Source of the DNA: a virus
Length of the DNA: 28,186 nt
IMG/VR virus record: IMGVR_UViG_3300035698_018106
Coordinates: 294,717-322,902 of that record
Strand: one strand, 5' to 3'
Below the pieces are notes generated by a model. That model did not search any database and was not told the origin of the DNA. It saw only the letters and a program-made list of their open reading frames with translations. Below are positions 1,271 to 28,186 of the stretch, in pieces. A program made the translations under genes and the position numbers. How positions within the stretch are numbered: the stretch's first letter is position 1; every line of letters starts with the position of its first letter.

Positions 1271-1972
1271 TTAAATTTTAGTCTTTGGTATAAAATCTAA
1301 GATTAATCCAATATTAGCCATATTTGTTATATTCATATTTAATTCTCCTTCTTTAAGAATTTTTCTTAAATGTGTCACAAATACATCTAATGATCTACTT
1401 ACAAAATAATTAGATGTTTGCCACACTTTTTCTAATATGATATCTTTTTTAACTACTGTTGAGAAATTAGCAGCTAATAATTCAAATACACTAGCTTGTT
1501 TAGGCGATAATTGTTTAATAAGTATACCATTTTTAGATATAAGTCGTTTTGTTGGATCATATGTACAATCTCCAAATTCTATAATATCTCCCATCTTCGC
1601 TGTTAATCTAGCAAGTATTTCGAAATTATTATGATACATATATACATTATGTAACATAACACTTGCTAAATAATCTGTATCTGTTTCTTTAGTATAAGGA
1701 ATAATCATATCTGCAGATGATTTCTCATATTTTTCTAATCTAGATATTACAATTACTGGTATATAGTTGTAATATTTTTTTATAAATTCTATAACTTTAG
1801 GCGCATATTCTAAATCTCCATTTATTATATAGGCATCTGCTTTTTCATTGTCAATGGTATCCAATAAGGTTTTTTCAAATTTAACTATAGATATAGTATG
1901 ATTATCCTTTTTGGCTCCTCTAATGATAGAATTAAGAATTTTGTAATTTCCAGAGTTAACGGCTATTTTCAT
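1271..1972 (-). CDS. atypical OmpR/PhoB-family response-regulator-like transcription factor (winged-helix trans_reg_C domain plus a degenerate receiver-like N-domain)
   Basis: C-terminal 100 aa align position-by-position with the OmpR DNA-binding domain (FG...L..LSPKQASVFELLAAN....V.KD.ILEKVW.....S.RSLDVFVTHLRKIL.....I.....GL.LDF). The N-domain keeps the receiver S/T and K but replaces the acidic pocket (KILVVDDD becomes KIAVNSGN). Confidence 0.8.
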   Translation of the reverse strand: MKIAVNSGNYKILNSIIRGAKKDNHTISIVKFEKTLLDTIDNEKADAYIINGDLEYAPKVIEFIKKYYNYIPVIVISRLEKYEKSSADMIIPYTKETDTDYLASVMLHNVYMYHNNFEILARLTAKMGDIIEFGDCTYDPTKRLISKNGILIKQLSPKQASVFELLAANFSTVVKKDIILEKVWQTSNYFVSRSLDVFVTHLRKILKEGELNMNITNMANIGLILDFIPKTKI

Positions 1973-5393: not shown

Positions 5394-6017
5394 TTATCTT
5401 TTTAACATTTCAATATAATTATCTCGTAGATATAAAAAATTACTAGGCTTAAAATTTATATCATCAACAATTTCTTTAAACAAATGATTTGCCTCATCAA
5501 ACACCATTATTTTTTGATATTTTTTCATTTGTATACCAAATATTAATATTCTAATAGCATGCCAAATACCCTTCTTAACAACTAAACTTATTTCTTCACT
5601 ATCTTTTTCAATTACCCATCTTTTATCAGCTATATGCCAACTATTAGATGATTGTGTGATAACTTTTTTAATAAGTTCTTTCTCGTAAAATTTGTTTATC
5701 TTAAAATTGAATTTTTTCTTTATAATTTGATCATCATCCAAAGATATTGCTTCTAATGCTGGCATCATATAATTATTAATAGCATCAATAAACCCACCTT
5801 TACTATAAGGTGTGCCTTGGATTGATTTACTATGGTTGCTTACTGCATTATCTTTAAATGAACCGCTACGTAATAAAGATGTTTTGAAAACTATTATATA
5901 ATCATCATCAGAATCTTCTCTATTAGTTCCATATACTTTAGAACCATACGGATATATATTCCATATGTCATCTATATCAAAATTTAATTCCTTACAAATA
6001 TATTCTGGTGTATACAT
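5394..6017 (-). CDS. nucleotidyltransferase-fold protein (NTP_transf_2 / Pol-beta superfamily)
   Basis: N-terminal YGSKVYGTNREDSDDDYIIVF matches the GS-x9-13-DxD signature (consensus FGSYARG....SDIDLLV). Confidence 0.6.
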   Translation of the reverse strand: MYTPEYICKELNFDIDDIWNIYPYGSKVYGTNREDSDDDYIIVFKTSLLRSGSFKDNAVSNHSKSIQGTPYSKGGFIDAINNYMMPALEAISLDDDQIIKKKFNFKINKFYEKELIKKVITQSSNSWHIADKRWVIEKDSEEISLVVKKGIWHAIRILIFGIQMKKYQKIMVFDEANHLFKEIVDDINFKPSNFLYLRDNYIEMLKR

Positions 6018-6019
6018 TA

Positions 6020-6445
6020 TTAGCTTTGTTTAATTAGATATCCTTTAGAAGCTTTAAATATAGTATACCATATATCTTGATATTTAAAAGTAACTTTATC
6101 TAATGAAAATTCAGATACTTCTACATAATCACAATATAATAATTTTACTTCGCCAGCGCCATAAACGCCTGGAGGAATATGTCCCTCAAAATCTTTATAT
6201 TCCCATGGGTGGTCTTCGGTTTGTATTACCATTCTGACCTTCCCTCTTTTACTTGGAAATTCATGTTTAGGTATAACATAAGAACGAAGTACTTTGCCTT
6301 CTGTGGTCACTACTGGTTCACTAGTAGTATCTAAACGTTTCGTTAAATATGTTTCTATATCCCCACCATCTTCAAACCGGACATCCCAATGAAGTCCGGC
6401 TTTAAAAGCATGATGTTCTTGTATAACTAATAGACGTTTATCCAT
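6020..6445 (-). CDS. LigD-type 3'-phosphoesterase domain protein (polynucleotide 3'-phosphatase/3'-ribonuclease, stand-alone)
   Basis: VIQEHHA..LHWDVRFE ... RSYVIPK ... VIQTEDHPWEYKDFEGHIPPGVYGAGEV matches the LigD PE-domain hallmarks (QKH.A..LHYD.RLE, W.VPKGP, VEDHPLDY.DFEG.IP...YGAG). Confidence 0.75.
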   Translation of the reverse strand: MDKRLLVIQEHHAFKAGLHWDVRFEDGGDIETYLTKRLDTTSEPVVTTEGKVLRSYVIPKHEFPSKRGKVRMVIQTEDHPWEYKDFEGHIPPGVYGAGEVKLLYCDYVEVSEFSLDKVTFKYQDIWYTIFKASKGYLIKQS

Positions 6446-6911: not shown

Positions 6912-7104
6912 TATAAATCCCTTCTTTTTTATTTTTTTTAATTTGTTCAATAGCTGATAACGAAAATGTCGACATTCTTTTCCAAAAATCTAAAGATTGA
7001 TTTCCGGTTAATACTCGAACAGCATTTCCAGCATCTTTTTCAACTATTAAATCTATACCACCAATACCATTTTTAGTTGTATCAATTACTTTTTTTCTTG
7101 CCAT
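6901..7104 (-). CDS. small hypothetical protein
   Basis: 67 aa ORF, ATG start. Confidence 0.4.
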   Translation of the reverse strand: MARKKVIDTTKNGIGGIDLIVEKDAGNAVRVLTGNQSLDFWKRMSTFSLSAIEQIKKNKKEGIYNGT

Positions 7105-7106
7105 GA

Positions 7107-7472
7107 TTATTGAATGTTATGTTTTAATAATAATTCTTTTGCTTCTTTTAGTCTTTTTTGTAATCCCGGATCGTTTATAACAGGAGCCGCTTTTTTCTTC
7201 ATACTAGCTATAGTTTTTCTTCCAAGTTGTTCAAGTTCTTTAGCATCTTGCTTTAAAACTCCTTTAACATCTACACCTTCAAAAGAAGAAGCATATGTGT
7301 GTGATACATCAATAGAAGCATCTGTAAGTGCTTCACTAAATTTAGTACCATCTTCCATTTCAGCATCCATTAATGCAGAAGCCATGGCTCCACCAACAAC
7401 TACAACTAGTCCAACTATTATAAAGAAAATAGTTCCTTTTAAAACGAATCCAATAAGTTTAATTAAAAACAT
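7107..7472 (-). CDS. membrane-anchored protein (N-terminal TM helix)
   Basis: 121 aa; IFFIIVGLVVVVGGAMASAL hydrophobic segment; first gene after cassette copy a. Confidence 0.5.
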   Translation of the reverse strand: MFLIKLIGFVLKGTIFFIIVGLVVVVGGAMASALMDAEMEDGTKFSEALTDASIDVSHTYASSFEGVDVKGVLKQDAKELEQLGRKTIASMKKKAAPVINDPGLQKRLKEAKELLLKHNIQ

Positions 7473-7490
7473 AATTTTTTAATTTTGATT

Positions 7491-7552
7491 TAAGTAAATA
7501 TAACCATTTACATCAACAGTAAAAAATTTTAAATGTTAAAAAATGTTAATTA
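7491..7552 (-). promoter_or_regulatory. promoter cassette copy a (core + TGTTAA direct repeat)
   Basis: TAAATATAACCATTTAC...AAATGTTAAAAAATGTTAA; about 20 nt upstream of ATG 7472. Confidence 0.5.
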
Positions 7553-7894
7553 ATCTTTAGATGTATTAAATAGTTGTCTTAATTCCTTTGCTTTGATAAA
7601 CAAATATTTAATCATTTCATCATAAAAATCAGGGACGGATTTCATCTTCGAAATCATTTTATCATTATAAGGATTTAATTCAACAACTGTATTACCCGCA
7701 TGTACATAAATAGTCCAATCATCAGCATGTCTTTGTTTTTGAACTTTGGCGACATTACATGAAGAACCTATACCGATTTCACCACCATTACCGTTCAAAA
7801 TAGTTTTGACTAGTTCATCTATAAATTCTTCTTTATTATCTTCTATATCATGTAGATTATCATGATATATGGTTACAGTTGTTAAATATCCCAT
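7550..7894 (-). CDS. hypothetical protein
   Basis: 114 aa ORF; last gene of the ABC-ATPase/kinase block. Confidence 0.5.
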   Translation of the reverse strand: MGYLTTVTIYHDNLHDIEDNKEEFIDELVKTILNGNGGEIGIGSSCNVAKVQKQRHADDWTIYVHAGNTVVELNPYNDKMISKMKSVPDFYDEMIKYLFIKAKELRQLFNTSKD

Positions 7895-7900
7895 AATATA

Positions 7901-8158
7901 TTATTTTACATCATTAAAATTTAGTGTATCAGATTTAACTTCTGACCTTCCGGCGTTAAAATCTTTTTGAAAAGATTCAAATACTTTTCCAGTATCCTTT
8001 ATCAAATTATTCTCTTCAGTAGAATAATATTTAAACACATATACTACACTCCAAATAAAAGCGGCTAATAAACTTAGTTGTATTAATACCATTACCAAAC
8101 CTCCTATTATACTTGTTTTAATTATGCTTTTATTAAACGTTTTGTGAAAATTTTTCAT
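7901..8158 (-). CDS. small membrane protein
   Basis: 85 aa; TM segment IIGGLVMVLIQLSLLAAFIWSVVYVF; ATG 1 nt after the kinase stop. Confidence 0.45.
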   Translation of the reverse strand: MKNFHKTFNKSIIKTSIIGGLVMVLIQLSLLAAFIWSVVYVFKYYSTEENNLIKDTGKVFESFQKDFNAGRSEVKSDTLNFNDVK

Positions 8159-8159
8159 T

Positions 8160-8561
8160 TTATCTTAATTTAATATTAAATCGTTTCTCCATTTTTTCTA
8201 ATGTTTCTATAGGCACATTATGTATGTCAACACCATTATGTCTATTTTCAACAACTATAGAATATACTTTATATCCATATTTCTTTGCTAAATCATAATA
8301 AGGTTTCAATTCTCTTTCAGTTGTAGAAGTATTAGCTACACATATTTTTGGTAAACCATGCTCCATAGCTCTTTTTGTTTCAGCTTGACACCATGCATGG
8401 GCTTCACCTATCTTATCAAGAGACCAATTATAATTACCATCTTTATCAGTAAAATAATCATCAGCAGATAACACCTGTTGAGATATTAAATTAGCAAATG
8501 AGGTTTTACCACATCCAGGCACGCCCCGGACCATTATAAGATCCTTAATTTCTTCTTTCAT
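8160..8561 (-). CDS. polynucleotide 5'-kinase (kinase domain only), T4 Pnk-like P-loop kinase
   Basis: IMVRGVPGCGKTSF (Walker A), LSADDYF and CVANTSTTERELKPYYDLAKKYGYKV...NRHNGVDIHNVPIETLEKM parallel the T4 Pnk kinase domain (TIGCPGSGKST / NRDDYR / SDTNLNPERR...EYGWKV); no phosphatase domain, 133 aa. Confidence 0.8.
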   Translation of the reverse strand: MKEEIKDLIMVRGVPGCGKTSFANLISQQVLSADDYFTDKDGNYNWSLDKIGEAHAWCQAETKRAMEHGLPKICVANTSTTERELKPYYDLAKKYGYKVYSIVVENRHNGVDIHNVPIETLEKMEKRFNIKLR

Positions 8562-8573
8562 TATATAATATTA

Positions 8574-9293
8574 TTAAATATTTTCTAAATAATCCTTTGA
8601 TTGTATCCATTCCATAATTTCGATATCGAAAATTAAATCTATATTTTCGATAAATACTTTTGAATGGGTAATAATTATGATATCCTTTTTTAAAGATACT
8701 AATTCATTTAAATATTTTTTTTGATTCTTAAGAGATAATCCTTGTTCAGGTTCATCTAATATTAGCAAATCAAAATCTAAAGATATTATACTTTTTAAAA
8801 CACCTTCCCTTGTTTCTCCATGACTTTCTGCAACCCACATAAATTGATTTAATATTTCAGGAGCTGAATAAGTAATACCTTTTTGAGGATCGGGTTTTGA
8901 CACAGCTGGATTTATTTTTTCCATATCAACTAATAAAACTTCTTTATTTTGCAAAGAAGTTTTATTATTTTCAATTAATAAACGAATTAAAGTAGATTTA
9001 CCTACTCCATTATCGCCCACTATAATATTAACACCTTTTTTTAATTCAAAGGTATCCCCTTTATTAAAAAGCTTTTTATAATCAAATGTTTGTGTAACTG
9101 TTCTTTCTTTTTTTGTTAAAATAGGTCTTCTACCATTTCCTAATTTTAATTTCTTTACTTTTACATCAATAGCTTGAGATAATTCTCTTCCTTCAAGTTC
9201 AACTTTTTTTGTTTTTGAAAAGATATCCTTCCTCATAGGAGAGTAATCTTCTGTTACATCAATTATATAATCTTTTTTAAACGTAATCTTCAT
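8574..9293 (-). CDS. ABC-type (SMC/AAA_21-like) ATPase
   Basis: Walker A GDNGVGKST, degenerate signature ESHGE, Walker B/D-loop LLILDEPEQGLS, H-loop IIITHS; about 80-aa N-terminal extension. Confidence 0.65.
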   Translation of the reverse strand: MKITFKKDYIIDVTEDYSPMRKDIFSKTKKVELEGRELSQAIDVKVKKLKLGNGRRPILTKKERTVTQTFDYKKLFNKGDTFELKKGVNIIVGDNGVGKSTLIRLLIENNKTSLQNKEVLLVDMEKINPAVSKPDPQKGITYSAPEILNQFMWVAESHGETREGVLKSIISLDFDLLILDEPEQGLSLKNQKKYLNELVSLKKDIIIITHSKVFIENIDLIFDIEIMEWIQSKDYLENI

Positions 9294-9463
9294 TATTCTA
9301 GAATTTGTATACCATTAATATTAAGTGAGTAATTTTCAGCAATACACCAGGATATGATCTCCTGATCATTTGCATTATCAAAGAAACAATCTCTAAATTG
9401 ATCTCTTGTCCCGAGGAAAATATAACCCTCTTCTACTTTTATACAACATTCAGAATATTCCAT
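9293..9463 (-). CDS. small protein (56 aa, MEYSECCIKVEEGYIFLG...) translationally coupled to the ABC ATPase
   Basis: hand-translated ORF below the track's length cutoff; its TAA overlaps the ATPase ATG (TAATG). Confidence 0.35.
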   Translation of the reverse strand: MEYSECCIKVEEGYIFLGTRDQFRDCFFDNANDQEIISWCIAENYSLNINGIQILE

Positions 9464-9603
9464 TAAACTAATTTAAATGATTCATTTTTAATTTCTTCTA
9501 CATCTACCTTTATTAACTAAAGATGTTTTAAAATCTCCTTTTTGTCCTATAGGTAAATAAGCTGAATTTTTCATATTTTGATATATGTGGCATAATGTAT
9601 TAT

Positions 9604-10104
9604 TTAAAATGAATAATCATAATATTCTTGTTTAACACCAAATATGATATTTACTGTTGTCCATTCAATTTTAAGTTTTGTTAAACCTTCAATTAAAGAA
9701 TTAATAAATACCCCATTATATACTCCTCCTGCCTTACTGAATGCTTCATTTAGTAATTTACCATGATTTCCATATTTTTTATGAGCTTCATCAGTGAATG
9801 TAAATCCTACATGTTTCTTTTTCCACGAACCCCATTTATAATAAAGTGTAATTGTTCCTTCAATAAGTTCATTATATTCATAAGACTGTTGATCACTCAT
9901 ACCTAATTTGTCAACTCTTTTTGGGTGGTATCGTTGAATAACAACAGATTTTGATTTTTCATTTACATCAATAACTTCATATGCATGTCTATCAGAATGA
10001 AACAACATAGTAGCTCCTTTACCAATTTCTGGAATGGTTTGATTATTGCCCATCATCCAATTAACTAAAGAACCTGTTGTATTAAAAGTTAATGATTGCT
10101 TCAT
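9604..10104 (-). CDS. hypothetical protein (166 aa from Met-14; the track ATG at 10143 lies inside the promoter core)
   Basis: the 10143 ATG is the ATGG of the conserved core ATTTGGTTATATTTA; the next ATG (10102-10104) restores the usual core-to-ATG spacing. Confidence 0.45.
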   Translation of the reverse strand: MKQSLTFNTTGSLVNWMMGNNQTIPEIGKGATMLFHSDRHAYEVIDVNEKSKSVVIQRYHPKRVDKLGMSDQQSYEYNELIEGTITLYYKWGSWKKKHVGFTFTDEAHKKYGNHGKLLNEAFSKAGGVYNGVFINSLIEGLTKLKIEWTTVNIIFGVKQEYYDYSF

Positions 10105-10120
10105 ATTTTTATTTTTAAAT

Positions 10121-10190
10121 TTATAATAGTTAAATATAACCATTTACTATAAGAGTAAAAAATCTGAAATGTTAATAAATGTTAAAATTA
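10121..10190 (-). promoter_or_regulatory. promoter cassette copy b
   Basis: TAAATATAACCATTTACTATAAGAGTAAAAAATCTGAAATGTTAATAAATGTTAAAA. Confidence 0.5.
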
Positions 10191-10196
10191 ATTTAA

Positions 10197-10228
10197 CTAA
10201 AAAATCGACTATCTCTAGAGATAGTCGA
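10197..10228 (-). terminator. intrinsic-terminator-like hairpin + T-run (24-nt perfect palindrome TCGACTATCTCTAGAGATAGTCGA then TTTTTTAGTTA)
   Basis: 11-bp perfect stem; identical TTTTTTAGTTA tail as the 5352-5385 hairpin; just upstream of cassette b. Confidence 0.5.
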
Positions 10229-10339
10229 ATAAAATGTAATAGAAACCTGACTCCTGTAGTTTAAACAGGTTCTTTGTTTCATGATCAATAAAACAACACA
10301 TTGTATTTATATGCTAACATCAGTATTAAATATATCCTA

Positions 10340-10764: not shown

Positions 10765-10790
10765 ATCTCCTCCTCCAATTATTAATAAAT

Positions 10791-10860
10791 TAATTATAGT
10801 ATAAATATAACCATTTACTTTAAGAGTAGAAAATATTAAATGTTAAAAAATGTTAAAATT
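10791..10860 (-). promoter_or_regulatory. promoter cassette copy c
   Basis: ATAAATATAACCATTTACTTTAAGAGTAGAAAATATTAAATGTTAAAAAATGTTAAAA; the stop of 10853-11794 sits inside the second TGTTAA. Confidence 0.5.
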
Positions 10861-14036: not shown

Positions 14037-14581
14037 GACTTATGATTTATAAATTTTTCTCCGTGATAATTAGTTACATAAATTTCTGGTATATAAGGTT
14101 TTCTCATTAAAAATGCTCCTGGCATTATTAAGTTCTTACTATCTACAAAATAATAAGAAGATGTTCTTTCATATACCATTGTAACTCCACCAAAATGATA
14201 ATTAAATGATCTATATTTTATTGATATGTTAAATTTATTATCAATCTCTACAAAAAATATCGGATACTTTTTGGTTCCGGCTTCATATACAAAGTTACCA
14301 TTTGAATCTTTACCTCTCCATGGAGATATCAGAAATGGTCTGATTGTACCATCTATATTAGGATAATGATACTTATTAAAAAAGAATTCATATGAATCAG
14401 AGTCACTAGAAAGATTAACAGCTATTTCTTGGTCAAGAAAATATTGTAATACTTCTTTTCTTAAAGGTTGATCTTTTTTCTCATGACTTAAGACTCCATA
14501 AAGCCATATAAGATATTCCATTGGAAGCGTATCCAATCTATCCCCTTTATATGTTCCCCATTTCATCTTATGATATTCCAT
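14033..14581 (-). CDS. hypothetical protein (182 aa)
   Basis: first gene after cassette copy d; ATG about 10 nt past the cassette. Confidence 0.5.
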   Translation of the reverse strand: MEYHKMKWGTYKGDRLDTLPMEYLIWLYGVLSHEKKDQPLRKEVLQYFLDQEIAVNLSSDSDSYEFFFNKYHYPNIDGTIRPFLISPWRGKDSNGNFVYEAGTKKYPIFFVEIDNKFNISIKYRSFNYHFGGVTMVYERTSSYYFVDSKNLIMPGAFLMRKPYIPEIYVTNYHGEKFINHKS

Positions 14582-14589
14582 ATATTTTT

Positions 14590-14658
14590 TAATTATAGTT
14601 AAATATAACCAAATTTACATTAAGAGAACAATTGCAAATGTTAATAAATGTTAATTGT
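14590..14658 (-). promoter_or_regulatory. promoter cassette copy d
   Basis: TAAATATAACCAAATTTACATTAAGAGAACAATTGCAAATGTTAATAAATGTTAA. Confidence 0.5.
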
Positions 14659-19055: not shown

Positions 19056-19378
19056 ACTTTATTTTTTAATATAGTTATTCCCCATTCTTCATCTTCATAA
19101 AGAAAATTAAACTTATCTGTTATAGAATGAGTACACATAAAATTAGTATACACTTTACCTTCATTTATACACTTTTGAATATCCTCTAATTCCGACTTTC
19201 CAAAATCTTCAGATTCTCCATAAAATGTAAAAGTATCAATATATTTGTCAAATATAAACCATCCACCTCCAGATACTTTCTCTTTATCAAAAGCTAATTC
19301 TTTATGATAATTACACTTGCCTATAATCAAATTTCCATCCTCTATAATAAACTTTGAAAATAATTCTGTTATGTCCAT
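19052..19378 (-). CDS. hypothetical protein (108 aa)
   Basis: first gene after cassette copy h. Confidence 0.45.
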   Translation of the reverse strand: MDITELFSKFIIEDGNLIIGKCNYHKELAFDKEKVSGGGWFIFDKYIDTFTFYGESEDFGKSELEDIQKCINEGKVYTNFMCTHSITDKFNFLYEDEEWGITILKNKV

Positions 19379-19391
19379 ATATTTTTTTATT

Positions 19392-19455
19392 TAGTTAAAT
19401 ATAACCAAATTTACTATAAGAGAACAATTTTAAATGTTAAAAAATGTTAAAAATT
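19392..19455 (-). promoter_or_regulatory. promoter cassette copy h
   Basis: TTAAATATAACCAAATTTACTATAAGAGAACAATTTTAAATGTTAAAAAATGTTAAAA. Confidence 0.5.
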
Positions 19456-20271
19456 AGTATATTGTTTAAGGGCAGCTTTAATAGTATCCATTGAAAAAGA
19501 CTTTCCATCAATCTCAATACTTGTATCACTTCTATTAACAACTTCTTCTGATGTTATTTTCTTAAATAAACTATTATTAACATAACATATTGTATTTTCA
19601 TTATAATGAAGTGCTAATGCGCAAATATTGTTAGTTTGATTCTTAACATACTTAATTGATGTAGGTGATTGAGTAATAGCTGCCATACAAATTTCTTCAG
19701 ATTGTTGTTTAACATATTGTAACATCTGTCCATTTATCTTTACTGCTACTAAACAAACTTTATCAAAATGTATATGAATATACTTTAATGCCGTAGGTGA
19801 TTGAGTAACTGCAACCATACAAATTCTAAGTGATTGATTTCTAACATATTGTACTGCATTCCCATTTTGTTCAACTGCTGCTAAACATATCTCCTCAGTT
19901 TGCTGATGTACTAAACATAATAGTAATCCATCTTGTTTAACGGCGGCCAAACAATTATCAAGTGTTTGTATAATAACATACTTAAAAGCATTACTATTTT
20001 GTTTAATAGCTTCTAAACAAATCTCTTCAGTTTGTTTCTTTACATATTGTAAAGCATTTGTATCTTTTCTAACAGCTGCTAAACAAATCTCTTCAGTTTG
20101 CTCATCTACAAACGTCAATGCTCCGCTATTCGTCAGAACAGCCATCATAGCCTCTCCACCAGTCAAATCACATTTTGGACCAGCATATATATAATGCTTA
20201 TCTCTATAATTTTTTAAGTGCTTAGGGCAATTTCTATTAAAAGTATCTTGCAAATGAGTTTGTTTTAACAT
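19447..20271 (-). CDS. 22-aa tandem-repeat protein (DUF4116-like), paralog 1
   Basis: about 9 repeats of EQTEEICLAAV[KR]QNG.ALQYVK plus the conserved tail IEIDGKSFSMDTIKAALKQYTNF; its stop lies inside cassette h. Confidence 0.6.
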   Translation of the reverse strand: MLKQTHLQDTFNRNCPKHLKNYRDKHYIYAGPKCDLTGGEAMMAVLTNSGALTFVDEQTEEICLAAVRKDTNALQYVKKQTEEICLEAIKQNSNAFKYVIIQTLDNCLAAVKQDGLLLCLVHQQTEEICLAAVEQNGNAVQYVRNQSLRICMVAVTQSPTALKYIHIHFDKVCLVAVKINGQMLQYVKQQSEEICMAAITQSPTSIKYVKNQTNNICALALHYNENTICYVNNSLFKKITSEEVVNRSDTSIEIDGKSFSMDTIKAALKQYTNF

Positions 20272-20288: not shown

Positions 20289-20618
20289 TTAAATTAACAC
20301 AAAAGCTAAACATTTTTCAGCTAATGGTAAAAGCTCTTCTAAATGTGGTAATCTATATGAATAATAATTACATTCGTTACCATTAAATTTCTTTATTTCG
20401 TTCTTATATGTATTAAGCAATGTCTCTATATTTTCAATATAAGTTGTTAATGCATCTATTACAGCATCAATATGACTATCACATTTAAATTTTTGATTTG
20501 TTGATGATGTTAAAAAATCAATACTAACTTTTGCCCCATACCTACTAAAGGTAGATTTTATAACAATACTATCTTTAGAAGAATGCTTACTCAAAATTTC
20601 AACTATTTTTTCTATCAT
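20289..20618 (-). CDS. hypothetical protein (109 aa)
   Basis: first gene after cassette copy i. Confidence 0.45.
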   Translation of the reverse strand: MIEKIVEILSKHSSKDSIVIKSTFSRYGAKVSIDFLTSSTNQKFKCDSHIDAVIDALTTYIENIETLLNTYKNEIKKFNGNECNYYSYRLPHLEELLPLAEKCLAFVLI

Positions 20619-20627
20619 AATTTTATA

Positions 20628-20698
20628 ATTTTATAATAGTTAAATATAACCAAATTTACTATAAGAGAACAATATTAAATGTTAAAAAATGTTAAAAA
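20628..20698 (-). promoter_or_regulatory. promoter cassette copy i
   Basis: TTAAATATAACCAAATTTACTATAAGAGAACAATATTAAATGTTAAAAAATGTTAAAA (near-identical to h). Confidence 0.5.
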
Positions 20699-21309
20699 CT
20701 AATATATTGCTTAAGTGCAGCTTTAATAGTATCCTTTGAAAAAGTCTTACCATCAATCTCAATCTCATTATTTTCTTCTTTAAACATATCTTCCTTTACA
20801 TATTGTAATGCACGCACATCTTGTTTAACAGCTTCTAAACATATCTCTTCAGTTTGCTCATTAACATAACGTAAAGCATGACCATTTTGTCTAACAGCTT
20901 TTAAACATATCTCTGGAGTTTGTTCTAATACATATTGTAATACAAATCCATTTTGTTTAATTGCTACTAAACACATCTCTTCAGTTTGCTCTTTTACATA
21001 TTGTAATGCATCCCCATCTTGTTTAACTGCTTCTAAACATATCGCTTCAGTTTGCTCTTTAACATAACGTAATGCATGACCATTTTGTTTAACTCCTGCT
21101 AAACATATCTCTGGTGTTTGCACCCTTACATACTGTAATGCATGACCTTTTTGTCTAACTGCTTCTAAACATATCTTTTCAGTTTGCTCATTAACATAAT
21201 GTAATACATAACCATCTTCTCTAACAGCTTCTAACGCTGCATCACCAGTTAAATTACATTTATCTTCTAACTTATCATAATCACTTTTATAATCTTTCAA
21301 ATCTTTCAT
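20692..21309 (-). CDS. 22-aa tandem-repeat protein (DUF4116-like), paralog 2 (start at MKDLKDYKSDYDKL; the track's 21333 start is a TTG)
   Basis: about 8 repeats and the tail IEIDGKTFSKDTIKAALKQYISF; the N-terminus matches paralog 3; its stop lies inside cassette i. Confidence 0.6.
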   Translation of the reverse strand: MKDLKDYKSDYDKLEDKCNLTGDAALEAVREDGYVLHYVNEQTEKICLEAVRQKGHALQYVRVQTPEICLAGVKQNGHALRYVKEQTEAICLEAVKQDGDALQYVKEQTEEMCLVAIKQNGFVLQYVLEQTPEICLKAVRQNGHALRYVNEQTEEICLEAVKQDVRALQYVKEDMFKEENNEIEIDGKTFSKDTIKAALKQYISF

Positions 21310-21360
21310 TATCCTTTTTTTCATTATATTCAAATATATCTATAATCTATCACAATATAA

Positions 21361-24267: not shown

Positions 24268-24326
24268 GTAAATATAATTAATATTACTATAACAGAAAAA
24301 TATTAAAAGTTAAATAAAGTTAAAAT
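24268..24326 (-). promoter_or_regulatory. degenerate cassette k (AGTTAA-N4-AGTTAA)
   Basis: AAATATAATTAATATTACTATAACAGAAAAATATTAAAAGTTAAATAAAGTTAAAA. Confidence 0.35.
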
Positions 24327-25294
24327 GATTTATTTACATCTATTTTTCTTTCAAAAGATAGTAAAGCGTTTTTAATATATTCATGAGGATATTCATTACC
24401 TTCGAAAATAATAGCAGATTGTTTTGGGAACATGTAATTATTAACATACATTAATGCTTTTATGTTTTGTTTAACAGCTCCTAAACATATCTCTTCAGTT
24501 TGTTCTTTAACATAACGTAATGTTTCTCCATCTTGTTTAACAGCAGCTAAACATATCTCTTCAGTTTGCTCTAATATATATTGTAATGTATTACCATTTT
24601 GTTTAACAGCTCTTAAACACATCTCTTCAGTTTGCTCATTAACAAATTGAAATGCATTACCATTTTGTTTAACTGCTTCTAAACATATTTCTTCAGTTTG
24701 CTTCTTAACATAACGTAATGCATAACCATTCTTTCTAACAGCAGCTAAACATATCTCTGGAGTTTGCTCATTTACAAAACGTAATGCATAACCATTCTTT
24801 CTAACAGCTTCCATACACATCTCCTCAGTTTGCTCAATTTGCTCATTAACATATTTTAATGCATAACCATTCTTTCTAACAGCTTCTAAACAAATCTCCT
24901 CAGTTTGCTCTTTAACATAGTATAATACAAATCCATGTTGTCTAACTACTTCTAAACATATCTTTTCAGTTTGTTCTTTAACAAATTGAAATGCATTACC
25001 AATTTCTTTAACTGCTTCTAAACATATCTCTTCAGTTTGTTCTTTAACATATTGTAATGCTAAACCATTCTTTCTAACAGCTTCCATACACATCTCCTCA
25101 GTTTGCTCATTTACAAAACGTAATGCTTCATTATGTTGTTTAACAGCTGCTAAACAAATCTCTGGAGTTTGTTCCTTAACAAATTGTAATGCGTTACCAT
25201 CTTGTTTAACAGCTTCTAACGCTTCTTCACCAGTTAAATTACACTTGTTCTTTAACTTATCATACTTACATTTATAATCTTTCAAATCTTTCAT
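24320..25294 (-). CDS. 22-aa tandem-repeat protein (DUF4116-like), paralog 3, longest (324 aa)
   Basis: about 12 repeats; divergent C-terminal tail; its stop lies inside cassette k; preceded by cassette l. Confidence 0.6.
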   Translation of the reverse strand: MKDLKDYKCKYDKLKNKCNLTGEEALEAVKQDGNALQFVKEQTPEICLAAVKQHNEALRFVNEQTEEMCMEAVRKNGLALQYVKEQTEEICLEAVKEIGNAFQFVKEQTEKICLEVVRQHGFVLYYVKEQTEEICLEAVRKNGYALKYVNEQIEQTEEMCMEAVRKNGYALRFVNEQTPEICLAAVRKNGYALRYVKKQTEEICLEAVKQNGNAFQFVNEQTEEMCLRAVKQNGNTLQYILEQTEEICLAAVKQDGETLRYVKEQTEEICLGAVKQNIKALMYVNNYMFPKQSAIIFEGNEYPHEYIKNALLSFERKIDVNKSF

Positions 25295-27580: not shown

Positions 27581-27604
27581 GATGTATATTGTTTAAATTT
27601 GTAT

Positions 27605-27668
27605 AAGATAAATATAACCATTTGCTTTAACAGTAAAAAATATTAAATGTTAAAATATGTTAAATGTT
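27605..27668 (-). promoter_or_regulatory. promoter cassette copy n
   Basis: ATAAATATAACCATTTGCTTTAACAGTAAAAAATATTAAATGTTAAAATATGTTAAA. Confidence 0.45.
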
Positions 27669-27733: not shown

Positions 27734-28186
27734 TTATAAAAATAGATCCTCTTTAACATACTTTAATGCTTTTATGTTTTGTTTAATAGCAGCTAAACAG
27801 ATTTCTTCAGTTTGTTCTAATACATATTGTAATGCATAACCATTTTGTCTAACTGCTTCTAAACATATCGCTTCAGTTTGTTCTTTAACATATTGTAATG
27901 CAGAAGCATGTTGTTTAACAGCTTCCATACACATCTCCTCAGTTTGCTCATTTACATAACGTAACGCTTCTCCATTTTGTCTAACAGCAGCTAAACATAT
28001 CTCTTCAGTTTGCTTTTTAATAAATTGTAATGTATGACCGCTATGTTTAACAGCTTCCATACACATCTCCTCAGTTTGCTCAGTTTGCTCATTAACATAT
28101 TTTAATGCATAACCATTTTGTTTAACTGCTTCTAAACAAATCTCCTCAGTTTGTTCTAATACATATTGTAATGCTAAACCATTTTG
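27734..28186 (-). CDS. 22-aa tandem-repeat protein (DUF4116-like), paralog 4; 5' end lies beyond the window; C-terminus cut short by an in-frame TAA
   Basis: the frame stays open from 28066 to the window end (..QNGLALQYVLEQTEEICLEAVKQNGYALKYVNEQTEQTEEMCMEAV..); the conserved tail KVEIDGKTFSKNTII is in frame but 3' of the TAA at 27734. Confidence 0.5.
   Translation of the reverse strand, partial: QNGLALQYVLEQTEEICLEAVKQNGYALKYVNEQTEQTEEMCMEAVKHSGHTLQFIKKQTEEICLAAVRQNGEALRYVNEQTEEMCMEAVKQHASALQYVKEQTEAICLEAVRQNGYALQYVLEQTEEICLAAIKQNIKALKYVKEDLFL

What the first reader, a model, noticed from the sequence alone, without database searches (positions are those of the whole stretch)
7550..9463. Translationally coupled block: 56-aa protein - ABC ATPase - Pnk kinase - membrane protein
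A small 56-aa ORF (9293-9463, missed by the ORF track) ends in TAATG with the ABC ATPase (8574-9293). The kinase follows after 12 nt and a small TM protein after 1 nt. The whole block lacks an internal cassette, so it is probably one transcript from cassette b.

Small stand-alone ABC/AAA_21 ATPases are hallmark components of conflict systems such as PARIS AriA, Septu PtuA, Gabija and OLD-family enzymes. Pairing one with a polynucleotide kinase in a virus-like genome could represent a counter-defence module, a hijacked defence module, or a repair module.
Basis: partly seen in the sequence, partly recalled or inferred. Interest (0 to 1): 0.5.

Follow-up and report, generated by a model that had tools for sequence, protein, structure and literature searches.

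The report
Phage gene block: mini-ABC ATPase, RNA-repair kinase
The block is a real but ordinary run of tightly packed accessory genes in a large phage, in which a well-supported RNA-repair kinase happens to sit beside an uncharacterised, phage-only miniature ABC ATPase that relatives usually place next to other genes.

Summary
All coordinates and junctions check out: TAATG overlap, then gaps of 12, 1 and 6 nt. This packing is normal here, since 30 of 58 junctions are 12 nt or less. The block and the upstream gene p166 lie between two copies of a promoter-like cassette that occurs 14 times, with none inside.

The 133-aa protein is a stand-alone T4-Pnk-type 5'-kinase (top fold hits, TM 0.72-0.77). 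Its homologues occur in 616 cultured phage records. In all four I opened, across different genera, an RNA ligase and a phosphoesterase lie within about 2.5 kb. A LigD-type 3'-phosphoesterase and a Pol-beta nucleotidyltransferase lie 1-2 kb downstream in the window. Probable role: RNA or tRNA end-healing.

The 239-aa ATPase has an intact single ABC domain of the AAA_15/AAA_21 class. It lacks that class's central insert, has no nuclease or permease partner, and was not found in cellular genomes. It is an N-terminally extended branch of a 'mini-ABC' family so far seen on large-phage and huge-phage contigs. The kinase is adjacent in only 2 of 12 contexts, and those two are collinear relatives. RtcB lies within two genes in two other lineages.

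The 56-aa ORF looks coding but has no relatives. The 'dedicated ATPase-kinase conflict module' reading is only partly supported. Interest is modest.

The parts
10205..10228 (-). Terminator-like hairpin with a T run. It closes the upstream unit.
   Evidence: 10-bp stem, 4 G-C pairs, T-rich tail
10107..10187 (-). Promoter-like cassette. Layout: two TTAACATTT 9-mers with a 10-nt period, about 29 nt, GGTTATATTTA, then about 25 nt to the ATG. It bounds the unit upstream.
   Evidence: family D2, 14 copies; 17 matches against 0.9 expected
9604..10104 (-). p166, a conserved hypothetical protein listed as a 179-aa ORF starting at 10143. It is the first gene of the unit.
   Evidence: The 57%-identical homologue in L007 aligns from residue 16. 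The cassette overlaps the longer start. No Pfam or PHROG hit.
9293..9463 (-). orf56, a 56-aa orphan ORF that is probably coding. Its stop overlaps the ATPase start (TAATG).
   Evidence: codon score, chance 0.001; only an identical copy in 5.8 billion proteins
8574..9293 (-). 239-aa single-domain ABC ATPase: a basic 68-residue N-terminal extension plus a 'mini-ABC' core of the AAA_15/21 class.
   Evidence: invariant Walker A, ESHGETR, DEPEQGLSL, THS; hhalign to the mini-ABC family, E 1e-48
8160..8561 (-). 133-aa stand-alone polynucleotide 5'-kinase of the T4 Pnk type (phrog_2071, AAA_33)
   Evidence: Synteny with RNA ligase and phosphoesterase in relatives.
7901..8158 (-). 85-aa protein with one predicted N-terminal membrane helix
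   Evidence: hydropathy 2.56. Weak homologue at L007 7466-7708, placed after p114 there (score 50 against 26 +/- 4.7 for shuffles, 0 of 2000 reach it).
7550..7894 (-). p114, a 114-aa protein of unknown function (phrog_7147). It is the last gene of the unit.
   Evidence: E 1.8e-8. A 50%-identical homologue directly follows the kinase in L007. No match in cultured phages.
7471..7551 (-). Next copy of the promoter-like cassette. It bounds the unit downstream and precedes the p121 gene.
6020..6445 (-). 141-aa LigD-type 3'-phosphoesterase in the next unit, a candidate 3'-end-healing partner of the kinase
   Evidence: LigD_N 50.8 bits against a cut-off of 31.1; LigD_PE_dom 1.3e-16. A 71%-identical copy lies at the same relative place in L007.
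5394..6017 (-). 207-aa Pol-beta superfamily nucleotidyltransferase, 2 nt after the phosphoesterase
   Evidence: phrog_388, 2.1e-8; NTP_transf_2, weak. The GS...DxD motif is visible in the sequence.

Best explanation
The region is one co-directional transcription unit, p166-orf56-ATPase-kinase-TM85-p114. It lies in the accessory-gene region of a large, AT-rich phage, probably one that infects Bacteroidota. Two copies of a repeated promoter-like cassette bound it. It is not a dedicated ATPase-kinase system.

Kinase (shown by fold, profile and synteny; activity inferred). It is a stand-alone T4-Pnk-type 5'-OH polynucleotide kinase. Together with the LigD-type 3'-phosphoesterase and the Pol-beta nucleotidyltransferase 1-2 kb downstream, it would heal broken RNA ends, most likely tRNA cut by host anticodon nucleases. 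A ligase encoded outside the window would then seal them.

ATPase (class and motifs shown; role inferred). It belongs to an uncharacterised family of miniature AAA_15/21-class ABC ATPases, not found in cellular genomes, that keep every catalytic motif. It most likely works as an ATP-sandwich homodimer that clamps or senses a nucleic-acid or ribonucleoprotein substrate through its basic N-terminal extension. Its target is unknown. A link to RNA repair is hinted at but not established.

orf56 and TM85 are lineage-specific small proteins with no assignable role.
For: Structure of the unit:
- Junctions and ORFs.
- Cassettes at both ends and none inside.
- A terminator-like hairpin lies just upstream.

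Kinase:
- Its profile matches the T4 Pnk kinase domain over its full length (E 4e-5), and invariant D34 aligns with T4 D35.
- The AF2 model (pLDDT 88) has T4 Pnk and C. thermocellum Pnkp kinase as its top 20 PDB hits, TM 0.71-0.77.
- In four cultured phage groups the homologue lies next to an RNA ligase, with a phosphoesterase adjacent or within 2.5 kb. In the metagenomic locus L039 it overlaps an Rnl1-type ligase gene.
- The window carries LigD_N and a nucleotidyltransferase downstream.

ATPase:
- Walker A, SHGE, Walker B with its Glu, and the H-loop are invariant in 36 homologues.
- The AF2 model (pLDDT 82) matches generic ABC nucleotide-binding domains.
- hhalign to the 175-200-aa mini-ABC family gives E 1e-48. 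Those proteins pass the AAA_15 and AAA_21 cut-offs in two end pieces only.
- Family members seen so far lie on phage contigs of 40 to 735 kb. A scan of 185,579 cellular genomes gave no family member, only one weak 49-residue partial match in a Butyrivibrio MAG contig.
- Neighbours vary across 12 contexts.
- The N-terminal 68 residues carry a net charge of +8.

Background on RNA-repair gene sets in jumbo phages: PMC7824862.
Against: - No ligase is present in the 28-kb window, so the repair pathway is incomplete here.
- The LigD_N match covers only profile positions 18-68 of 107.
- Phosphoesterase and kinase are in different cassette-bounded units.
- Transcript boundaries are inferred from motifs only. 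The 140-nt gap at 9464-9603 could hold another promoter type.
- The ATPase's dimerisation and substrate are pure inference.
- RtcB lies within two genes of the ATPase in two other lineages, and the kinase in a third. That count is somewhat more than random placement predicts: roughly P 0.001-0.05 for 3 of 11. A real functional link with RNA repair therefore cannot be dismissed.
Confidence: 0.6

Rival explanations
1. Dedicated RNA-repair module. The mini-ABC ATPase is an accessory factor of the repair pathway. For example, it could recognise or hold broken tRNA, or damaged ribosomes, for the kinase, phosphoesterase, and ligase or RtcB. In that case its position beside the kinase is functional.
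For: - RNA-repair enzymes lie within two genes of the ATPase in 4 of 12 contexts, representing 3 lineages: the kinase in the window and L007, and RtcB in L009/L013 and L020.
- Rough binomial P is 0.001-0.05.
- A metallophosphoesterase like the one in the cultured-phage repair triad directly follows a remote mini-ABC in L034.
- Three remote mini-ABCs carry an N-terminal domain like GatB/YqeY, which is tRNA-binding in GatB.
- The N-terminal extension is basic.
- The best solved-structure and NCBIfam matches are ribosome-binding ABC-F proteins.
Against: - Eight of 12 contexts have no repair gene nearby.
- Kinase homologues occur in 616 cultured phage records, while the ATPase matched only 3 other records there.
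- The window and L007 are collinear over more than 5 kb, so their shared adjacency is one event.
- The ABC-F ranking comes from summing two domains. Single-domain scores equal those of SufC-like and ECF proteins.
- The GatB_Yqey hits are below Pfam's cut-off and occur in 3 of 143 representatives.
- Accessory genes cluster in islands, which inflates chance adjacency.
Confidence: 0.2
2. Counter-defence decoy. The miniature AAA_15/21 ATPase forms dead-end ATP-sandwich heterodimers with host defence ATPases of the same class, such as PARIS AriA, Septu PtuA or the PrrC/RloC N-domains. That would block tRNA-cleaving immunity, and the neighbouring repair enzymes would mend residual damage.
For: - The class is shared with those defence ATPases.
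- All dimer-interface motifs are kept although the insert is lost.
- The family was found on phage contigs and not in cellular genomes.
- PARIS and Septu cleave tRNA (PMC11464382; abstract of PMC13096335 as listed).
- The location is an accessory region next to tRNA-repair enzymes.
Against: - There is no direct evidence.
- PADLOC matches are limited to the P-loop or Walker B stretches.
- There is no precedent that I know of.
- Conservation of the catalytic Glu and the H-loop points to real ATP turnover, not a passive mimic.
Confidence: 0.1
3. Phage-borne defence or exclusion system of the PARIS, Gabija, Septu or OLD type. The ATPase would be the sensor and a neighbour (kinase, TM85 or p114) the effector.
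For: - AAA_21 passes Pfam's cut-off.
- PADLOC lists mad3 (3e-14), AriA (2.5e-10) and PtuA (3e-9).
- Some phages do carry PARIS (PMC11464382).
Against: - No TOPRIM, HNH or other nuclease is in the unit.
- Only 59 residues separate Walker A from the signature motif, so the family's central insert is absent.
- No neighbour is kept across the 12 contexts.
- The kinase belongs to a repair triad elsewhere.
Confidence: 0.04
4. Transport or membrane-linked ATPase. The ABC protein would energise a membrane partner (TM85) for import, export, lysis timing or superinfection exclusion.
For: - ABC_tran passes its cut-off (30 bits against 25).
- The best Foldseek hits include transporter nucleotide-binding domains.
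- A one-helix membrane protein is in the unit, and a weak homologue is kept in L007.
- A 64-aa hydrophobic protein follows the ATPase in L015.
Against: - No multi-pass permease occurs in any of 12 contexts.
- TM85 is separated from the ATPase by the kinase, and by the kinase plus p114 in L007.
- The small proteins downstream in 7 other contexts are not hydrophobic.
- The helical subdomain that contacts permease coupling helices is reduced and modelled with low confidence, residues 127-160.
Confidence: 0.04

Closest known systems
T4 polynucleotide kinase-phosphatase (Pnkp) kinase domain, and the split kinase / RNA ligase / phosphoesterase sets of rV5-like, phAPEC8-like and Pseudomonas phages (phrog_2071)
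   Same: The 133-aa protein has the same fold (TM 0.72-0.77), P-loop and aligned catalytic Asp. It is 40-50% identical to the 'ATPase' or 'polynucleotide kinase' genes that lie next to an RNA ligase in cultured phages, with a phosphoesterase adjacent or within 2.5 kb.
   Different: It is a kinase only, with no fused HAD phosphatase. The neighbouring 3'-end enzyme here is a LigD-type phosphoesterase, not the metallophosphoesterase of the cultured phages. It lies in the next unit, and no ligase is in the window.
AAA_15/AAA_21 ABC ATPases of conflict systems (OLD, Gabija GajA, PARIS AriA, Septu PtuA, PrrC/RloC N-domains)
   Same: It shares the ABC-ATPase class: an N-terminal beta-strand plus Walker A of the RecF/SMC/OLD type, an SxGE signature, DE Walker B and an H-loop. 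It passes Pfam's AAA_21 cut-off.
   Different: - It has 239 aa, against roughly 370-700 profile positions in the defence models.
- The central helical insert is missing: 59 residues separate Walker A from the signature.
- There is no nuclease partner or fusion.
- It is phage-encoded, and PADLOC models match only short stretches.
Soluble ABC proteins (ABC-F translation factors, SufC/SmsC, ECF EcfA)
   Same: These are the best sequence-profile and fold matches. Like them, the protein is soluble with no permease and probably acts as an ATP-sandwich dimer.
   Different: - It has a single domain, where ABC-F has two joined by a linker.
- Scores are far below family cut-offs (54 against 380 bits for ribo_prot_ABC_F).
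- No SufB/D-like or ECF T/S partner is present.
- The helical subdomain is reduced.
Uncharacterised 'mini-ABC' proteins of large phages (e.g. Bacteroides phage DAC19 gene DAC19_53, uncultured huge phages LR756501, LR756503 and LR756504)
   Same: They share a homologous core (hhalign E 1e-48, 33% identity over 167 columns). They share the motifs GDxGxGKS, D.EKDNPR, SHGE, DEPExGLS, THS and a C-terminal W..S..Y/F. All are annotated as hypothetical.
   Different: The window's subfamily adds a conserved, basic 68-residue N-terminal extension. About 55 database clusters are known, all metagenomic.

Membership tests
T4-Pnk-type polynucleotide 5'-kinase | P-loop kinase fold of the Pnk type | tested here: met
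   AF2 model with pLDDT 88. The top 20 PDB hits are T4 Pnk and C. thermocellum Pnkp kinase, TM 0.71-0.77.
T4-Pnk-type polynucleotide 5'-kinase | Walker A Lys/Ser(Thr) and the catalytic Asp (T4 Asp35) in the xDDY segment | tested here: met
   GxxGxGK is invariant (G13, G16, G18, K19), with S or T at position 20. D34 is invariant in 29 homologues and aligns with T4 'NRDDY'.
T4-Pnk-type polynucleotide 5'-kinase | Genomic association with an RNA ligase and a 3'-end phosphoesterase | tested here: met
   In relatives. In the window only a LigD-type phosphoesterase lies 1.7 kb away, and no ligase is present.
T4-Pnk-type polynucleotide 5'-kinase | 5'-OH polynucleotide kinase activity | not testable with these tools
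   Needs a biochemical assay.
Pfam AAA_21 / AAA_15 (OLD/RecF-like ABC ATPases) | Score at or above the curated cut-off | tested here: met
   AAA_21 scores 34.8 bits against 27. AAA_15 scores 23.7 against 32.1, which is not met for the window protein but is met by its mini-ABC relatives at 36-60 bits.
Pfam AAA_21 / AAA_15 (OLD/RecF-like ABC ATPases) | Full-length architecture including the central helical insert | tested here: not met
   Matches cover only profile ends, about 1-62 and about 250-304. Walker A to signature is 59 residues.
PARIS AriA / Septu PtuA / Gabija GajA / OLD defence systems | Adjacent or fused nuclease effector (TOPRIM, HNH) | tested here: not met
   No such domain was found in any protein scanned between 3950 and 13656 of the window. 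None appears in the precomputed Pfam lists of the gene calls around 11 related contexts.
PARIS AriA / Septu PtuA / Gabija GajA / OLD defence systems | Full-length match to the system's own profile | tested here: not met
   The best PADLOC stretches are 20-55 residues long.
ABC transporter nucleotide-binding domain | Cognate permease encoded nearby | tested here: not met
   None in the window or in the 11 other contexts. Only one-helix small proteins occur, and inconsistently.
ABC transporter nucleotide-binding domain | Canonical LSGGQ signature and Q-loop Gln | tested here: not met
   The signature is ESHGE. The Q-loop position seems to be taken by an invariant Glu in D-x-E-K-x-N-P; that assignment is inferred.
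ABC-F translation factors | Two tandem ABC domains joined by a linker of about 80 residues | tested here: not met
   Single domain. The NCBIfam ABC-F model scores 54 bits against a cut-off of 380.
LigD 3'-phosphoesterase (for 6020-6445) | Pfam LigD_N above the cut-off | tested here: met
   50.8 bits against 31.1, but only profile positions 18-68 of 107 are covered. TIGR02777 scores 60.7 bits, below its cut-off of 144.
Translationally coupled operon | Overlapping or abutting stop and start codons, one strand, no internal promoter or terminator | tested here: inconclusive
   The geometry is met. The same geometry holds for half of all junctions in the window. Coupling itself needs experiments.

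The most novel reading that the evidence does not exclude
The miniature AAA_15/21 ABC ATPases of large phages, including this 239-aa form with its basic N-terminal extension, are a new class of counter-defence factor aimed at tRNA-targeting immunity. They could act as ATP-driven chaperones that present broken tRNA or damaged ribosomes to Pnk, RtcB or Rnl repair enzymes. Alternatively they could act as dominant-negative partners that poison host ABC-type sensors such as AriA, PtuA or PrrC.
Probability: 0.15. Interest if true: 0.7.

Novelty: new variant of a known kind. Interest (0 to 1): 0.35.

Why it matters
The kinase, phosphoesterase and nucleotidyltransferase add one more split RNA end-healing set to the known repertoire of large phages, which is ordinary.

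The ATPase is the more useful lead. It defines a family of stripped-down ABC ATPases of the same class as many bacterial defence sensors, found on phage contigs and not in cellular genomes. The family comprises hundreds of 50%-identity clusters, and none has a function or an informative name. If it acts on tRNA repair or on host ABC-type immunity, it would be a new player in the contest over the translation apparatus. It would also be a compact model ABC domain for biochemistry.

Tried and rejected
- DNA-level search of the block in cultured phages: only the kinase matched, at 70-73% identity over about 150 nt.
- IMG/VR scan with the single ATPase protein: nothing. With the family alignment: only 2 loci.
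- Metagenome scan: 8 loci, mostly short or already held.
- Cellular genome scan: no family member, only one weak 49-residue partial match in a Butyrivibrio MAG contig.
- orf56: no homologue beyond an identical copy. No similarity to the ORFs upstream of the ATPase in six relatives. The Pfam DUF3666 hit (18.7 bits against 25) was rejected as sub-threshold.
- BLASTP reported no alignment between TM85 and the L007 80-aa protein. A Smith-Waterman shuffle test did show similarity, so I treat them as weak homologues only.
- ABC-F origin of the ATPase: considered because ABC-F proteins top the solved-structure and NCBIfam lists. Rejected as a membership claim because single-domain scores are no better than those of SufC-like or ECF proteins and the fold search is generic.
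- Phage structure library: only generic ABC and AAA hits.
- PHROG scan of ten immediate neighbours of the ATPase in relatives: no hits.
- Pfam scan of neighbours of remote mini-ABCs: unrelated functions, including metallophosphoesterase, R2K ATP-grasp, DUF932, deaminase, UvrD, methyltransferase, glycosyltransferase and ThyX.
- Rfam scan of the window: nothing.
- p114 and the LigD-type phosphoesterase: no match in cultured phages.
- RlaP membership of the 207-aa nucleotidyltransferase: not supported by Pfam.
Full report
**1. Observation**

The window is 25-31% G+C, and nearly all ORFs of 60 aa or more lie on the minus strand. The ORFs in the finding exist exactly as stated:

- orf56, 9293-9463(-)
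- a 239-aa ATPase, 8574-9293(-)
- a 133-aa kinase, 8160-8561(-)
- an 85-aa protein, 7901-8158(-)

The stated range also holds a 114-aa gene not named in the title, p114 at 7550-7894(-). The junctions are a TAATG overlap, then gaps of 12, 1 and 6 nt.

orf56 has an in-frame codon-usage score of 0.20. The window's genes score 0.31 +/- 0.11, and all five other frames of orf56 are negative. A random ORF of that length abutting the ATPase start arises in 0.1% of simulations. It is therefore probably a gene.

The tight spacing is a property of the whole window, not of this block. Thirty of 58 junctions are 12 nt or less, and 14 overlap.

**2. Transcription-unit boundaries**

A cassette of about 80 nt occurs 14 times on the minus strand. 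Its layout is TTAACATTT-W-TTAACATTT, about 29 nt, GGTTATATTTA, then 20-35 nt to an ATG. The double 9-mer gives 17 matches at up to 3 mismatches, against 0.9 expected.

Copies lie at 10107-10187 and 7471-7551, and none lies between them. A terminator-like hairpin at 10205-10228 sits just upstream of the first copy. No other minus-strand terminator-like site was found in 7000-10300.

The unit bounded this way also contains the upstream gene. Its likely start is ATG 10104, giving 166 aa, because the longer 179-aa reading starts inside the cassette.

The unit is larger than stated, and the 140-nt gap at 9464-9603 remains unexplained.

**3. The kinase**

- Pfam AAA_33 gives E 5.9e-10 and phrog_2071 gives E 2e-42.
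- A profile of 29 homologues matches the T4 Pnk kinase domain end to end (E 4e-5). It also matches the C. thermocellum and Capnocytophaga Pnkp kinases. Invariant D34 aligns with the T4 catalytic Asp35.
- The AF2 model (pLDDT 88) has polynucleotide kinases as its first 20 PDB hits, TM 0.71-0.77.
- Homologues of 36-50% identity occur in 616 cultured phage records. I opened four groups: Justusliebigvirus alia, Aeromonas phage PAc, Vequintavirus CarlMeissner and a Pseudomonas phage. In each the gene lies next to an RNA ligase. A phosphoesterase is adjacent in three and 1.9 kb away in the fourth.
- In the metagenomic locus L039 the gene overlaps an Rnl1-type ligase gene, and in L038 such a ligase lies 3 kb away.

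The 'Pnk kinase' label is therefore well supported, and its usual role is RNA end-healing. This matches what is described for jumbo phages in general (PMC7824862).

In the window, a LigD-type 3'-phosphoesterase lies in the next unit at 6020-6445 (LigD_N 50.8 bits against a cut-off of 31.1). A Pol-beta nucleotidyltransferase lies at 5394-6017 (phrog_388, 2e-8). No ligase is present in the 28 kb.

**4. The ATPase**

Thirty-six homologues of 50-66% identity keep these motifs invariant: Walker A (GDNGxGKS), an SHGE signature within ESHGETREG, Walker B with its Glu and the following segment (DEPEQGLSL), and the H-loop (THS).

Pfam AAA_21 (34.8 bits against 27) and ABC_tran (30 against 25) both pass their cut-offs, but only through the two ends of the profiles. 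The AF2 model (pLDDT 82) shows an ABC nucleotide-binding domain with a reduced, low-confidence helical subdomain at residues 127-160. It matches only generic ABC domains, TM about 0.45.

ABC-F proteins top the solved-structure and NCBIfam lists. That ranking comes from adding two domains. Single-domain scores equal those of SufC-like and ECF proteins, and all are far below family cut-offs.

An exhaustive profile search of 1.84 billion representatives gave these results:

- Only 10 clusters reach E 1e-30 or better.
- The listed hits below these (E 1e-29 to 1e-18) are mostly 175-200-aa proteins that align over the whole core.
- 889 clusters in all reach E 1e-10 or better.

hhalign between the two alignments gives E 1e-48. 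These 'mini-ABC' proteins pass the AAA_15 and AAA_21 cut-offs in two end pieces only. They are therefore OLD/RecF-class ATPases that lack the central insert.

The contigs I could place are Bacteroides phage DAC19-type genomes (179 kb), uncultured huge phages (636-735 kb) and IMG/VR contigs of 40 to 441 kb. All are unannotated or 'hypothetical'. A scan of 185,579 bacterial and archaeal genomes found no family member, only one weak 49-residue partial match in a Butyrivibrio MAG contig.

The window's subfamily adds a conserved 68-residue N-terminal extension with net charge +8.

**5. Is it an ATPase-kinase module?**

I collected 12 distinct contexts of the 239-aa subfamily and clustered all neighbours. 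Only the ATPase itself recurs in all of them.

The kinase is adjacent only in the window and in L007/L008/L012. Those loci are collinear with the window over more than 5 kb (p179, ATPase, kinase, p114, p69, LigD_N), so they count as a single evolutionary event. L007 also has a weak homologue of TM85, but placed after p114. It has no homologue of orf56.

orf56 has no relative in 5.8 billion clustered proteins except an identical copy.

No permease, TOPRIM, HNH or other effector appears in any context. PADLOC matches cover only short stretches.

The two gene families are largely independent in cultured phages. Kinase homologues occur in 616 records, and the ATPase matched only 3 Bacteroides phage records.

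**6. What remains suggestive**

- RtcB lies two genes downstream of the ATPase in L009/L013 and two genes upstream in L020. Together with the kinase lineage, that makes 3 of about 11 independent lineages with an RNA-repair enzyme within two genes. The rough binomial P is 0.001-0.05, depending on the assumed background. Accessory-gene islands inflate such chance adjacency.
- A metallophosphoesterase like that of the cultured-phage repair triad directly follows a remote mini-ABC in L034.
- Three remote representatives carry an N-terminal GatB/YqeY-like domain, below Pfam's cut-off.
- Defence systems built on ATPases of this class cleave tRNA: PARIS (PMC11464382) and Septu (abstract of PMC13096335 as listed).

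These hints motivate the novel reading but do not establish it.

**7. Verdict**

The kinase and its downstream partners are a new member of a known kind, the split RNA end-healing set.

The ATPase belongs to an uncharacterised miniature variant of a known ATPase class, found on phage contigs and not in cellular genomes. I rate the whole as a new variant of a known kind with modest interest.

Host inference is weak. It rests on three things: the absence of Shine-Dalgarno sequences in the block, a Por_Secre_tail neighbour in L041, and the Bacteroides phage relatives. Together they point to Bacteroidota.

Noticed in passing
window, 14 sites on the minus strand, e.g. 7471-7551, 10107-10187, 10778-10858, 14576-14656, 19372-19452, 20617-20697, 27585-27665; and 1271-1972(-): A repeated promoter-like cassette carries two TTAACATTT 9-mers in direct repeat with a 10-nt period, upstream of a conserved GGTTATATTTA element. 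That layout is typical of OmpR/PhoB-type winged-helix binding sites. The window encodes a 233-aa Trans_reg_C protein, also present in the related contig L038, which is a candidate phage activator for these promoters.
   Followed up: partly
window 19447-20271, 20692-21333, 24320-25294, 27734-28066 (all minus strand): Four paralogous genes are built of 66-nt (22-aa) tandem units, and three of them score as DUF4116 repeats (up to E 9e-78). Most are preceded by a copy of the promoter-like cassette.
   Followed up: no
window 9604-10143(-): The listed 179-aa ORF starts inside the promoter-like cassette. The real start is probably ATG 10104 (166 aa), which agrees with where the L007 homologue begins to align.
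   Followed up: partly
window 5394-6445(-): A LigD-type 3'-phosphoesterase is followed after 2 nt by a Pol-beta nucleotidyltransferase. This is a pairing of end-healing and end-rebuilding enzymes. The nucleotidyltransferase did not match Pfam's RlaP family.
   Followed up: partly
proteins P0148, P0152, P0106 (remote mini-ABC representatives): An N-terminal domain of about 90 residues resembling the tRNA-binding GatB/YqeY tail is fused to a mini-ABC core that carries an insert. Stand-alone YqeY genes lie about 5 kb from ATPase homologues in L004, L022 and L023.
   Followed up: partly
L009 4845-5735 and L029 2413-3390: A DUF932 protein lies just upstream of the ATPase homologue in L009 and 1.5 kb upstream of a remote mini-ABC in L029.
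   Followed up: no
L018 (Ga0222686_1018392, 1048 nt); proteins P0001, P0202, P0203: Fragments identical to the window, covering the ATPase 3' end, kinase, TM85 and the p114 5' end, occur in other public metagenome assemblies. The same phage has therefore been sampled more than once, but only as contigs under 2 kb.
   Followed up: no
window 7107-7472(-) and 7901-8158(-): Both TM85 and the first gene of the next unit (p121) have a single N-terminal hydrophobic helix. None of the genes in the block has a recognisable Shine-Dalgarno sequence.
   Followed up: no
L022, L023, L004 (contexts of ATPase homologues): NAD-salvage and ADP-ribose genes (NAMPT, PRPP synthetase, SIR2, NUDIX, AAA_28, DUF3307) cluster within a few kb of the ATPase in several relatives. 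This is typical of accessory islands in large T4-like phages.
   Followed up: no
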